Shown here: positions 33,201-36,200 of the stretch, piece after piece
How the letters are laid out: every line of letters starts with the position of its first letter
How positions within the stretch are numbered: position 1 is the stretch's first letter
Origin: Escherichia coli O127:H6 str. E2348/69
GTDB lineage: Bacteria > Pseudomonadota > Gammaproteobacteria > Enterobacterales > Enterobacteriaceae
Direction: 5' to 3' (one strand)
DNA: 64,000 nt
NCBI RefSeq assembly: GCF_000026545.1
Contig: NC_011601.1
Position numbers: made by a program

Positions 33201-36200
33201 CCAGTCTGGAAACGGCATCTTCATCGGTAATGAAGTGCGTCATATTGGCATATTCACCCACCATCGGCGTGAGCGGCAGTTGCAAACCGTGACCCAAATC
33301 TACCACCACGCCGCCATCGCCAATCTGCATAATCAAGGTGCCATTAGCTGATGAAATCAATCCCAAAAACGTGCAGGCAAAATCGCGAACCGCTAATTCT
33401 TTGGCTTCCGCCTCGGCAAAAAGTCGCTGACGAATGGTCAGCACAATGTCCGTTGCGAGAACATCATTAAGCCCCAATTCCCCGCCCTGCACTTTTTGCG
33501 ACATATAAGCCATCGCTTCATTGACGGCGAGCATCGCACCTTCGCCTCCCTGCGAGGCGCTACCTGCGCCATCAGCGACAAATACCGACAATAATGGCTG
33601 CTGGTCATTTAACCAGGCAACCTGCATCTGGCAGGCATCCTGGCAAGGCAAGTCCGCGCTGATGTGCGACGTTCCAACGGCTGATGCATAGACCAGACGC
33701 CAGCTCACACTGACGTCCAGCCTTTTGGCGCTTCCAGCACAACTTCCGTTCCCGGCGTGGAGCGGGAAACCGAACGCAGCGAACTGGATAACCAGCTAAA
33801 CAGTTCACGGAATTGTAACCCCTGCAGAGACAAAGGCTGACGGACGCTGATTTGAGCCAGCGTCTTCATATCCGCCCCCTGAACACCGATGGAAAAGAAG
33901 GCAAACTTCTTATCTTCTTCCCCCTGAAACACTTTGTTGGCGGCAGCCTGCCACTCATCGGTTGGTGCACCATCGGTGATCAGGAAAATCCACGGACGAT
34001 AATAGGAAATACCATTGGCACGATATTCACGTTTCCGCTCCTCAACCATATCCAGGGCTTTGGTAATGGCAGCGCCCATTGGTGTATCGCCCTGGGCAAA
34101 CAGGATGGGCGGGAAAAAATTAGCGGCGCTGGTAAAGGGTTGTTCCACATGCACCGGGCCGAACGTCACAATGCCGAGTTCCACTCTTTTTAAGGCCAGC
34201 GAATCGGCAAGCAGCTCATCGCGAAAGGTAATCAATCCGGCGTTAAGTTCATTAATGGGTCTGCCGCTCATCGAGCCAGAAACATCCAGCAGCAAAATGC
34301 AGGGGCAACGAGGTTCCGGGTTACTGGCAAAATCGCTGGTGGCAAACGTGATTTGTTCGCTCATAAGAAATCCTTTCTTAGAGTATTATTGAGATCCGGT
34401 ATCATACCGACTGCAATAATGAAATAAGAGCAAACGAAGAAACTTTCAGAATTAGGCCCGGCGGCGCAGAAAATTTTGCTATTCGCCTCGCAAGAACGAA
34501 GAGCCGTCGATTGACACTAAGGGCGGAGTGACATAATTTCAGGAGTGAGGGTAGAGCGGGGTTTCCCCCGCCCTGGTAGTCTTAGTAAGCTGGCCAGCTA
34601 ATGACTAAGAGCACCACAATGATGAGTAGCTTCATCATGACCCTTTCCTTATTTAAGGCCCCTTCCTCGGGCTGTCTCTTATACACAAATCCCCACCCGG
34701 GGATTTGTGATGTCTGTCAGTCTGCTTTAGGGGGACTCTTTCCATCCGGTAGTTTCCTTCCTCCCCGGCAGCGATTTTTTGAACTTTTTCCTCACCCGTT
34801 GATCTTCTCTTATATTTCATTTTCTTCGGGTCTGTTATGGTACTTTCTGATTGTTATTCATGGGCTAACGAGCAGTTTGGACATGCCCGTCTCGGTGATC
34901 CGCGTCGTACACGACGCCTTGTGTCACTGGCCTCTTCTCTCGCTCAGCATGCAGGTCTTTCTATTGTGAAATCATCCCAGTCCACTGCTCAGGTTGAAGG
35001 TGCGTACCGCCTGATACGTAACCCGTCTGTGTCCCCGCAAGCCATTGCCGAAGCCGGATTTACCGCCACTGTAAGGGCATGTGAGGCTCATCCGCTGCTC
35101 CTCGCGCTGGAAGACACCACCACCATTAACTTCAGTCACAGTACGGCATCTGATGACCTGGGGAATACCACCACTAACCCGAAGACGCGCGGGCTGCTGG
35201 CTCACTCTGTCCTGATGTACGCCCCCGACAGCGCCCTGCCAGTCGGTCTTATCGAACAGCAGCGCTGGAGTCGTGCCACGGACACCTACGGTGTTAAGCA
35301 CCAGCGAAAAGAACGTCCCTATGAAGAAAAAGAAAGTTACCGCTGGCAGCAGGCTTCGGAGCGCATGGCCGAACGGCTGGGGGAGATACAGAAACGGGTA
35401 ATCACTGTCTGTGACCGGGAAGCGGATATCTGGCATTACCTGCATTATAAAGTCAGCCACGGGCAGCGCTTCGTGGTGCGTGCAGCACAGAATCGCCGGC
35501 TGGAAGAAGCACCCGGCAAGCTCTTCGAACTGCCGGAAGTCCTGGCAACCGCGGGAAGCCACACGCTGAATGTGATGCAAAAAGGCGGGCGGGCAGCCCG
35601 CCAGGCCCGGATGTTCATCAGTTACAGCGAAGTCAGCATAAAAAATCCCGACAACAGCGGCCAGGCGCTCCCGCTCACGTATGTCTGTTGCCGGGAGCAG
35701 GCAGAGGACGGCGCCTGCTGGCATCTGCTGACGTCAGAAAAAGTGGCGAGTGCCGCCGATGCGCGACGTATCGTCAGCCATTACGAGCGACGCTGGCTGA
35801 TAGAGGAATACCACAAGGCGTGGAAAAGTGGTGGTACATGTGTGGAATCGCTGCGAATGCAGACCCGGGATAACCTCGAGCGCATGGTGGTTATCAAGGC
35901 GTTTATCGCGGTGCGGGTGCTGGGCCTGCGGCAGGGCGGTATCAGTGAAGAAACACAAAATGACAGCTGTGAGAAAATACTGACGCCGACAGAGTGGAAA
36001 CTGCTGTGGGTTAAGCTGGAAGGAAAACCGCTTCCGTCACAGATGCCGACACTGAAATGGGCCTGTCTGAAACTGGCGAAACTGGGGCGATGGCATGACA
36101 GCAAACGCACCGGTCGCCCCGGTTGGGTAGTCATGTGGGATGGCTGGTTCAGACTTCAGGATATGGTTGAGGGTTACCTGGTGATGAAGTCTCTTGATCA

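What the first reader, a model, noticed from the sequence alone, without database searches (positions are those of the whole stretch)
34582..34638. Ibs toxin variant MMKLLIIVVLLVISWPAY, present as a single sib/ibs copy
Only one ibs/sib unit is present on the yegL side of the IS, whereas K-12 has tandem ibsA/sibA and ibsB/sibB there, as I recall. The peptide carries Trp near the C-terminus where I recall Phe in K-12 IbsB. Such small toxin genes are missed by ORF callers.
Basis: partly seen in the sequence, partly recalled or inferred. Interest (0 to 1): 0.3.

Follow-up and report, generated by a model that had tools for sequence, protein, structure and literature searches.

The report
IS-split Ibs/Sib toxin-antitoxin unit
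The 18-residue peptide is a real Ibs toxin gene, but it is a common, already annotated E. coli allele in a known copy-number-variable locus, and in this strain (EPEC E2348/69) an insertion sequence has cut the toxin-antitoxin unit in two.

Summary
Window 34582..34638 (-) encodes MMKLLIIVVLLVISWPAY*, overlapped by the only Sib RNA match in the 64 kb. K-12 has ibsA plus ibsB (…ISFPAY) at this site.

It is not new. The window is E. coli O127:H6 E2348/69, and RefSeq already annotates this peptide there (WP_100249772.1). A W-type allele occurs in roughly 950 of 5426 complete genomes. The yegL-mdtA array holds 1 to 4 units depending on the strain, and 90 genomes have one. The Trp codon lies in the hypervariable block where Sib RNAs tell their own target from others.

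ISEc13 (34672..36221, 8-bp duplication TCCTCGGG) sits inside the Sib terminator hairpin, 33 nt upstream of the ibs ATG. It separates the Sib RNA from the 3' half of its terminator. By homology to the mapped ibsC and ibsD start sites, it also separates ibs from its promoter. The toxin gene is therefore probably silent, which is inferred, not shown.

One side result may be new. ISEc13 has hit the same terminator position in at least six independent events, matching a target consensus CCYCT-N8-AGRGG.

The parts
34582..34638 (-). ibs ORF (IbsB-type, W15 allele): MMKLLIIVVLLVISWPAY plus stop
   Evidence: Translation. Pfam Ibs_toxin 38.3 bits. Identical to RefSeq WP_100249772.1 as annotated in E2348/69.
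34641..34650 (-). ibs Shine-Dalgarno region (AAGGAAAGGG), opposite the part of Sib that corresponds to TRD2
   Evidence: Read from the sequence. TRD2 lies in the translation initiation region according to Han 2010, PMC2943612.
34511..34537 (+). Sib promoter: -35 TTGACA (34511..34516), 15-nt spacer, TG-extended -10 CATAAT (34532..34537). The sequence is the sibA type.
   Evidence: Lenient promoter scan, 12 of 12 plus TG. Identical to the K-12 sibA promoter and not to sibB.
34541..34671 (+). Sib antitoxin RNA body, 5' end approximate by alignment to the SibC and SibD 5' ends. It includes both target-recognition regions and the 5' arm and loop of the terminator, and is cut off by the IS.
   Evidence: Rfam SIB_RNA 138 bits. 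Fold. Primer-defined SibC and SibD 5' ends.
34588..34609 (.). TRD1-equivalent hypervariable block (codons L11 to A17). It contains the Trp codon (34594..34596) and a 12-nt palindrome AGCTGGCCAGCT.
   Evidence: TRD1 is SibC +46..68, which covers the LLISFSA codons of ibsC. Differences between units cluster here.
34664..34671 (.). Left copy of the 8-bp target-site duplication TCCTCGGG
34672..36221 (+). ISEc13 (IS4 family, Tn5-like), 1550 bp. Transposase at 34837..36210. Ends are CTGTCTCTTATACAC… and …GATCAAGAGACAG.
   Evidence: RefSeq annotation of E2348/69. NCBIfam NF033590 at 514 bits. Pfam Tnp_DNA_bind, DDE_Tnp_1 and Dimer_Tnp_Tn5. Identical to the copy at 24096..25645.
36222..36229 (.). Right copy of the target-site duplication TCCTCGGG
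36230..36238 (+). Severed 3' arm and U-tract of the Sib terminator (AGGGGTTTT)
   Evidence: The reconstructed empty site folds into an 11-bp terminator at -16.8 kcal/mol. The uninterrupted site exists in strain 382634_2f.
36230..36300 (-). Severed first ~31 nt of the ibs 5' UTR, with the predicted ibs start site (~36259..36260) and promoter region
   Evidence: Homology of TTCAGCGGGACGCTG to the mapped 5' ends of ibsC (GCAGCATGGGGCTG) and ibsD (GTCAGCAGGGGGCTG) in Han 2010. Coordinates read.

Best explanation
This is the only surviving unit of the copy-number-variable sib/ibs type I toxin-antitoxin array between yegL and mdtA, in EPEC strain E2348/69.

The unit is a mosaic. It has the sibA-type promoter, the body of the W15 IbsB-type unit (the second unit in 4-unit arrays such as SE15), and the tail of the last unit. 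That pattern is what unequal recombination between repeats would leave. The Trp codon is part of the hypervariable TRD1 block through which each Sib RNA recognises its own ibs mRNA, so it is a standing paralogue or allele difference and not a new mutation.

After the array contracted, ISEc13 inserted 2 nt into the 3' arm of the Sib terminator hairpin. That point is also about +31 of the ~64-nt ibs 5' UTR.

Inferred consequences:
- The ibs ORF and its Shine-Dalgarno sequence are now 1558 bp from their promoter and start site. The toxin is probably not expressed.
- Sib is still transcribed from its strong promoter with both target-recognition regions intact. It lacks its terminator, so it either stops at a weak junction hairpin or reads into the IS in the sense direction of the transposase.
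- The locus is therefore most likely a disabled, harmless relic.

The anatomy is shown. The expression consequences are inferred.
For: Identity of the module:
- Peptide, Pfam Ibs_toxin, Rfam SIB_RNA.
- Synteny with K-12 yegL-ibsA-ibsB-mdtA.
- The window is 100% identical to three E2348/69 / O127:H6 assemblies across the IS junction.

Mosaic structure:
- Alignments to the K-12 and SE15 units.

Copy-number variation:
- 1 to 4 units in sampled strains.
- 90 of 5426 genomes have a single unit, and different units survive in different genomes.
- The W-type allele is widespread.

IS position:
- 8-bp duplication TCCTCGGG.
- The uninterrupted allele, with one copy of TCCTCGGG, exists in 382634_2f and four other genomes at 99.1% identity.

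Terminator:
- Intact hairpin -16.8 kcal/mol, junction remnant -7.2 kcal/mol.

ibs start site:
- The ibsC mRNA of 159 nt equals SibC (141 nt) plus 18 nt, so transcription starts beyond the Sib 3' end.
- The homologous sequence in the window lies right of the IS.

No replacement promoter:
- No sigma-70-like promoter faces ibs in the IS left end at the tool's threshold. Only weak 7-8 of 12 matches appear in a lenient scan.
Against: - No expression data for E2348/69 were available, so silence of ibs is not shown.
- The native ibs promoter is itself non-canonical and was not picked up by either scan. A negative scan of the IS end is therefore weak evidence.
- Transcription from the ibs promoter could read through 1.55 kb of IS antisense strand.
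- The junction creates a 5-bp hairpin followed by GUCUCUUAUA that the terminator scan does call. Sib may therefore still terminate and function almost normally.
- The direction of array evolution, contraction versus an ancestral single copy, is inferred from the mosaic pattern only.
Confidence: 0.7

Rival explanations
1. The module is still a working toxin-antitoxin pair. Sib terminates at the new junction hairpin or is processed to a stable 3' end at the IS terminal hairpin. ibs is transcribed from an outward promoter in the ISEc13 left end or by read-through.
For: - The terminator scan calls GGCCCCTTCCTCGGGCT followed by GTCTCTTATA at 34657..34673.
- The IS left end forms a very stable hairpin, -35.6 kcal/mol for 84 nt, z -5.2, that could stabilise a 3' end.
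- Both Sib target-recognition regions, the Shine-Dalgarno sequence and the ORF are intact.
- Some IS4-family elements carry outward promoters, for example pOUT of IS10 (my knowledge).
Against: - The junction hairpin is weak at -7.2 kcal/mol, and 30 of 200 shuffles fold as well.
- No promoter-like site faces ibs at the tool's threshold.
- The homologous ibs start site is on the far side of the IS.
- ISEc13 occurs at this same site in both orientations in other strains. This argues against a requirement for an orientation-specific outward promoter.
Confidence: 0.2
2. The F15W change is functionally important. It would make a toxin with altered potency or target, selected at the protein level, and this strain keeps only that version.
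For: - C-terminal residues of IbsC are needed for toxicity (review PMC8309996).
- Position 15 varies among F, W and Y, always aromatic, which suggests a constraint on that residue.
Against: - The change is aromatic to aromatic.
- In Salmonella IbsA, alanine scanning found only His3 and Leu11 to be required (preprint 10.1101/2025.05.26.656083). This peptide keeps K3 and the core Leu-Leu.
- The codon lies in the TRD1 block, where nucleotide differences, including synonymous ones, cluster. That fits RNA-level discrimination.
- The allele is common.
- Here the gene is cut off from its promoter.
Confidence: 0.1
3. The 18-codon ORF is a chance ORF and not a gene.
For: the ORF listing returns many short ORFs in this region.
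Against: Pfam hit at E 1.2e-9. Rfam antisense partner at E 2e-28. Conserved position and Shine-Dalgarno sequence. 17 of 18 residues identical to K-12 IbsB.
Confidence: 0.01

Closest known systems
E. coli K-12 ibsB/sibB (second unit between yegL and mdtA)
   Same: - Same locus and orientation.
- 18-aa peptide, 17 of 18 residues identical.
- The Sib body and the mdtA-side flank are 96% identical.
   Different: - W15 instead of F15, with 4 clustered nucleotide differences in the TRD1 block.
- The promoter is the sibA type.
- There is no ibsA/sibA unit.
- ISEc13 splits the terminator and 5' UTR.
Second unit of the 4-unit arrays in E. coli SE15 and 2012C-4502 (WP_100249772.1)
   Same: Identical peptide. 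The ORF and Sib body are nearly identical, with 2 differences.
   Different: There it is flanked by ibsA upstream and two more units downstream. It has an inter-unit type promoter region and no IS.
E. coli 382634_2f (single W unit) and A25 (single W unit carrying ISEc13)
   Same: - 382634_2f has the same single mosaic unit at 99.1% identity, uninterrupted. It serves as the empty site.
- A25 has the same unit and the same 8-bp target occupied by ISEc13.
   Different: - 382634_2f lacks the IS.
- In A25 the IS is in the opposite orientation, so it is an independent insertion.
IS50 / Tn5 (IS4 family)
   Same: - DDE transposase with Tn5-type DNA-binding and dimerisation domains.
- The ends resemble the IS50 outside and inside ends, CTGTCTCTT… (sequence; the comparison is from my knowledge).
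   Different: - 8-bp duplications here, against 9 bp for Tn5 (my knowledge).
- The target consensus seen here is CCYCT-N8-AGRGG.

Membership tests
Ibs/Sib type I toxin-antitoxin (Pfam PF13956, Rfam RF00113) | 18-19 aa hydrophobic peptide matching the Ibs_toxin profile above its gathering score | tested here: met
   38.3 bits against a cut-off of 27; residues 17-34 of the 34-aa ORF align to profile positions 1-19. NCBIfam gave no hit for the same ORF.
Ibs/Sib type I toxin-antitoxin (Pfam PF13956, Rfam RF00113) | Cis-encoded antisense Sib RNA covering the ibs ORF and translation initiation region | tested here: met
   SIB_RNA 138 bits against a gathering score of 56, full model 1-147, at 34511..34653 (+), opposite the ORF at 34582..34638 (-).
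Ibs/Sib type I toxin-antitoxin (Pfam PF13956, Rfam RF00113) | Strong Sib promoter | tested here: met
   TTGACA, 15-nt spacer, TG-extended CATAAT. This is a sequence match only.
Ibs/Sib type I toxin-antitoxin (Pfam PF13956, Rfam RF00113) | Rho-independent terminator at the Sib 3' end | tested here: not met
   ISEc13 splits the hairpin. The intact hairpin is -16.8 kcal/mol and the remnant -7.2 kcal/mol. The Rfam model stops before the terminator, so its 'complete' hit hides this.
Ibs/Sib type I toxin-antitoxin (Pfam PF13956, Rfam RF00113) | ibs promoter and start site contiguous with the ORF (mRNA ~160 nt) | tested here: not met
   The sequence homologous to the mapped ibsC and ibsD 5' ends lies at ~36246..36260. 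It is 1558 bp further from the ORF than in the uninterrupted allele.
Ibs/Sib type I toxin-antitoxin (Pfam PF13956, Rfam RF00113) | Conserved chromosomal site (yegL-mdtA intergenic region) | tested here: met
Ibs/Sib type I toxin-antitoxin (Pfam PF13956, Rfam RF00113) | Basic residue at position 3 and a core leucine (required in Salmonella IbsA) | tested here: met
   K3 and L10-L11 are present. The requirement is reported in preprint 10.1101/2025.05.26.656083.
Ibs/Sib type I toxin-antitoxin (Pfam PF13956, Rfam RF00113) | Peptide toxic on overexpression and repressed by the cognate Sib | not testable with these tools
   Needs cloning and growth assays.
ISEc13 (IS4 family, Tn5-like) | IS4-family DDE transposase | tested here: met
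   NF033590 at 514 bits against a cut-off of 160. Pfam DDE_Tnp_1, Tnp_DNA_bind and Dimer_Tnp_Tn5. RefSeq names it an ISEc13 family transposase, WP_000244358.1.
ISEc13 (IS4 family, Tn5-like) | Terminal inverted repeats and a target-site duplication | tested here: met
   CTGTCTCTT at both ends. 8-bp duplications at both window copies and at 5 of 6 other copies examined.

The most novel reading that the evidence does not exclude
ISEc13 selects targets of the form CCYCT-N8-AGRGG, a short G+C-rich inverted repeat with an 8-bp spacer. The terminator hairpins of Sib antitoxin RNAs match this consensus perfectly. Type I toxin-antitoxin units are therefore recurrent, near site-specific landing pads for this IS.

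Each insertion uncouples toxin from promoter and antitoxin from terminator at once, which makes it a safe way to disable the module. In one orientation it also places the transposase downstream of the constitutive Sib promoter.

I saw at least six independent events at the same hairpin position: sibA, sibB, the W unit in both orientations, and sibE in both orientations.
Probability: 0.55. Interest if true: 0.4.

Novelty: already known. Interest (0 to 1): 0.18.

Why it matters
The finding as stated adds little. The peptide, its family, its position and the strain-to-strain variation in ibs/sib copy number are all on record, and the W15 allele is common.

Three points are useful:
- A 'complete' Rfam or Pfam hit can hide a split gene. 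Here the toxin-antitoxin unit is probably disabled, so E2348/69 should not be counted as having a working unit at this site without RNA data.
- The Phe/Trp/Tyr variation coincides with the RNA-level specificity block (TRD1). That explains why the 'variant' exists without invoking a new toxin function.
- The recurrent ISEc13 insertions in Sib terminators suggest a defined target preference. This could be tested directly and would help interpret IS-driven decay of small-RNA loci.

Tried and rejected
Allele frequency was instead estimated from a 60-nt DNA query whose mismatch cluster breaks megablast words for non-W alleles.
- NCBIfam gave no hit for the 34-aa ORF that contains the peptide. Pfam did.
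- Two genome-contig scans with the ISEc13 left end were a dead end. The 38-nt pattern gave nothing. The 19-nt pattern gave 120 loci of unrelated Tn5-like ends and contig-end artefacts, none sharing more than 300 bp with ISEc13.
- Fozo et al. 2008 (PMC2597788) and the E2348/69 genome paper (PMC2612414) are not held. The ibs start site was taken from primer sequences in Han 2010 instead.
- No held paper discusses ISEc13 target choice.
- The simple promoter scan missed even the Sib promoter, whose spacer is 15 nt, and the native ibs promoter. A lenient script recovered the Sib promoter only. Promoter negatives are therefore weak.
- I considered and rejected three readings: a second, degenerate unit right of the IS (one search shows it is the tail of the same unit), a chance ORF, and W15 as a strain-specific mutation.
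Full report
**Observation**

The - strand of window 34582..34638 translates to MMKLLIIVVLLVISWPAY*. It has two in-frame ATGs and a Shine-Dalgarno sequence, AAGGAAAGGG, at 34641..34650. Because the tools need at least 20 residues, I scanned the 34-aa ORF that contains the peptide. Residues 17-34 match Pfam PF13956 (Ibs_toxin) at 38.3 bits against a gathering score of 27.

On the + strand, Rfam RF00113 (SIB_RNA) matches 34511..34653 at 138 bits against a gathering score of 56 (E 2e-28). It is the only Sib hit in the 64 kb. A low-stringency blastn of the unit against the window and a six-frame pattern search found no second copy.

In K-12 MG1655 the same intergenic region holds ibsA (MMKHVIILVILLVISFQAY) and ibsB (MMKLLIIVVLLVISFPAY).

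**Where the window comes from, and whether the peptide is known**

A 601-nt probe across the IS junction is 100% identical to three assemblies of E. coli O127:H6 E2348/69. [quoted passage not shown]

The same protein accession is found in:
- 382634_2f and RM14723, as a single unit;
- SE15 and 2012C-4502, as the second unit of four;
- A25.

I designed a 60-nt probe so that non-W alleles break every 28-nt seed word. It matched 1004 of 5426 complete genomes: 18 exactly, 938 with one or two mismatches, and 48 with four.
- All four hits sampled with two or fewer mismatches (536, SE15, 2012C-4502, RM14723) encode W15.
- The one hit sampled at four mismatches (Survcare045) encodes Y15.

The W-type allele is thus present in roughly one genome in six.

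**The array and the origin of the single unit**

The number of units between yegL and mdtA differs by strain:

| Units | Strains |
|---|---|
| 1 | E2348/69, 382634_2f, RM14723 |
| 2 | K-12, 536 |
| 3 | Survcare045 |
| 4 | SE15, 2012C-4502 |

Position 15 of the peptide is F, W or Y. Positions 4-5 are LL, RL, IL, WI or HV.

I removed the IS and one copy of the duplication to rebuild the 552-bp empty site. Only 90 of 5426 genomes match it end to end. They are heterogeneous: five carry the same W unit at 99.1% identity, others carry different IbsB-type units, and many (for example strain 042) keep only ibsA. Contraction to one unit has therefore happened repeatedly.

Column-by-column alignment shows that the E2348/69 unit is a mosaic:
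- the yegL flank and promoter are the sibA type, identical to K-12 sibA through TTGACACTAAGGGCGGAGTGACATAAT;
- the transcribed body and ORF are those of SE15 unit 2;
- the tail and mdtA flank are those of the last unit.

This is the pattern expected from unequal recombination within the repeats. The direction of change is inferred, not shown. Variation in Ibs copy number between strains has been published (Fozo 2010, PMC2887945).

**Why Trp is there**

Han et al. 2010 (PMC2943612) showed that SibC recognises its own mRNA through two regions, TRD1 and TRD2, which lie in the most variable parts of the repeats. Their oligo for SibC +46..68 corresponds to the ibsC codons for LLISFSA. The equivalent stretch here is 34588..34609.

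The differences from K-12 ibsB cluster in that stretch, at 34591, 34594-95 and 34600. Two of them make TTC into TGG and two are synonymous. The Phe/Trp/Tyr variation therefore sits in the RNA specificity block.

The substitution is aromatic for aromatic. In Salmonella IbsA only residue 3 (basic) and Leu11 were essential in an alanine scan (preprint 10.1101/2025.05.26.656083). This peptide keeps K3 and the core Leu-Leu. I infer that the peptide would be toxic if expressed, and that W15 is not a special functional variant. Neither point is tested.

A 1550-bp element lies at 34672..36221, flanked by an 8-bp duplication TCCTCGGG. An identical copy lies at 24096..25645. It is ISEc13, an IS4-family, Tn5-like element.

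In the uninterrupted allele, which really exists in 382634_2f, the sequence AAGGCCCCTTCCTCGGGAGGGGTTTT folds into an 11-bp terminator hairpin of -16.8 kcal/mol. The IS entered 2 nt into its 3' arm. What remains on the Sib side is a 5-bp stem with a 7-nt loop at -7.2 kcal/mol, followed by GUCUCUUAUA. The terminator scan does call this remnant, but 30 of 200 shuffles fold as well.

The Rfam model begins at the promoter and ends before the terminator. Its 'complete' hit therefore does not reveal the break.

For ibs, the insertion point is 33 nt upstream of the ATG. Han et al. mapped the ibsC and ibsD 5' ends. Their in vitro ibsC mRNA (159 nt) begins at GCAGCATGGGGCTG and ends opposite SibC +1, so transcription starts 18 nt beyond the Sib 3' end. 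The homologous sequence here (TTCAGCGGGACGCTG on the - strand) is at 36246..36260, on the other side of the IS.

The IS thus interrupts a ~64-nt 5' UTR at about +31 and puts 1558 bp between the promoter and the Shine-Dalgarno sequence. No sigma-70-like site facing ibs was found in the IS left end at the tool's threshold, and only weak matches appeared in a lenient scan. These scans also missed the native ibs promoter, so the negative result is weak.

**Most likely mechanism**

Shown: an Ibs/Sib unit whose ORF, Shine-Dalgarno sequence, Sib promoter and both recognition regions are intact, but whose Sib terminator and ibs 5' UTR are split by ISEc13.

Inferred:
- ibs is no longer expressed from its own promoter.
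- Sib is still made but has an abnormal 3' end or reads into the IS in the sense direction of the transposase.
- The IS left end forms a very stable hairpin, -35.6 kcal/mol over 84 nt, that could block or stabilise such transcripts.

An insertion that disables toxin expression and the antitoxin terminator in one step would be tolerated. The main rival, a module that still works, cannot be excluded without RNA data (confidence about 0.2).

**Side result: why the IS is at this position**

ISEc13 occupies the same hairpin position in other strains and other units:

| Unit hit | Orientation relative to E2348/69 | Strains | Duplication |
|---|---|---|---|
| sibE | same | SCU-115, FDAARGOS_144, A25, CP090611, B19374 | TCCTCGGG |
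| sibE | opposite | Rb-23, TUM14697, 1002W03 | TCCTCGGG |
| K-12-type sibB | same | Z1322HEC0010 | TCCTCGGG |
| single W unit | opposite | A25 | TCCTCGGG |
| sibA | opposite | A21 | TCTCCGGG |

The flanks are locus-specific in each case. With E2348/69, that makes at least six independent events.

Most strains seen with several near-identical ISEc13 copies have one or two of them in a Sib terminator. E2348/69 has about 30 chromosomal places.

Eight insertion sites with readable flanks share the pattern CCYCT-[8 bp]-AGRGG:
- CGCCTCT[GTTGGGGG]GGGGTCT in dgcE;
- GCCCCT[TCCTCGGG]AGGGGT in the W sib/ibs unit of this window (sibE and the Z1322HEC0010 sibB carry the same target);
- AACCTCC[CCGCCCCC]GGGGGTT;
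- AGCCCCT[CATTAAGC]AGGGAT;
- CTCCCCC[GCGTGAAG]CGGGGGAG.

Sib terminators are perfect matches to this pattern. No paper in the held library mentions it.

**Comparison with known systems, and verdict**

By profile, partner RNA and position, this is a member of the Ibs/Sib family. Two of the family's architectural features, an intact Sib terminator and a promoter contiguous with ibs, are tested and not met in this genome because of the IS.

The peptide and the copy-number polymorphism are already known and annotated. The finding as given is ordinary (interest about 0.18). The IS target preference is the only part that may be new.

Noticed in passing
window 34664..34671 and 36222..36229; loci L009-L013, L135, L136: ISEc13 recurs at the same position of Sib terminator hairpins in sibA, sibB, sibE and the W unit, in both orientations. 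The duplication is TCCTCGGG, or TCTCCGGG in sibA. That makes at least six independent events.
   Followed up: yes
window 24096 and 34672; loci L136-L141: Eight ISEc13 insertion sites share a palindromic target pattern, CCYCT-N8-AGRGG, with 8-bp duplications. Many are hairpin or terminator-like intergenic sites. The sample is small, so this is a hypothesis.
   Followed up: partly
window 23678..28553 (IS at 24096..25645): The second, identical ISEc13 copy splits the diguanylate cyclase gene dgcE/yegE. N-terminal residues 1-139 and C-terminal residues 138-1111 both match NCBIfam PRK09776. The gene is inactivated in this strain.
   Followed up: yes
window 24096..36221: Two identical ISEc13 copies in direct orientation bracket about 9 kb, from the 3' part of dgcE through yegL and the sib/ibs unit. 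Each has its own duplication, so they are independent insertions. The pair is a ready substrate for deletion or for composite-transposon-like movement.
   Followed up: no
L138 (E2348/69 plasmid pMAR2, 14355..16955): An ISEc13 copy lies between a Hok/Gef type I toxin gene and finO, with no matching duplication. Each flank on its own fits half of the target pattern, which suggests recombination between two IS copies.
   Followed up: partly
window 34588..34599: A perfect 12-nt palindrome, AGCTGGCCAGCT, covers the Ala-Pro-Trp-Ser codons. In the predicted Sib fold it forms the apical mini-hairpin of the TRD1 stem-loop. K-12 sibB lacks it.
   Followed up: no
window 34511..34653: The Rfam SIB_RNA model starts at the -35 box of the promoter and ends before the terminator. 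It therefore scores a unit with a severed terminator as a full-length, uncut match.
   Followed up: yes
window 49560..49645 (+), 3047..3096 (-), 17659..17697 (-): Other Rfam hits above gathering score: CyaR/RyeE sRNA (100.7 bits), algC RNA (77.3 bits) and a JUMPstart element (57.3 bits).
   Followed up: no
L002 and L004: Neighbouring genes are decaying in other strains. pphC is frameshifted in 382634_2f, and yegL has an internal stop in strain 536.
   Followed up: no
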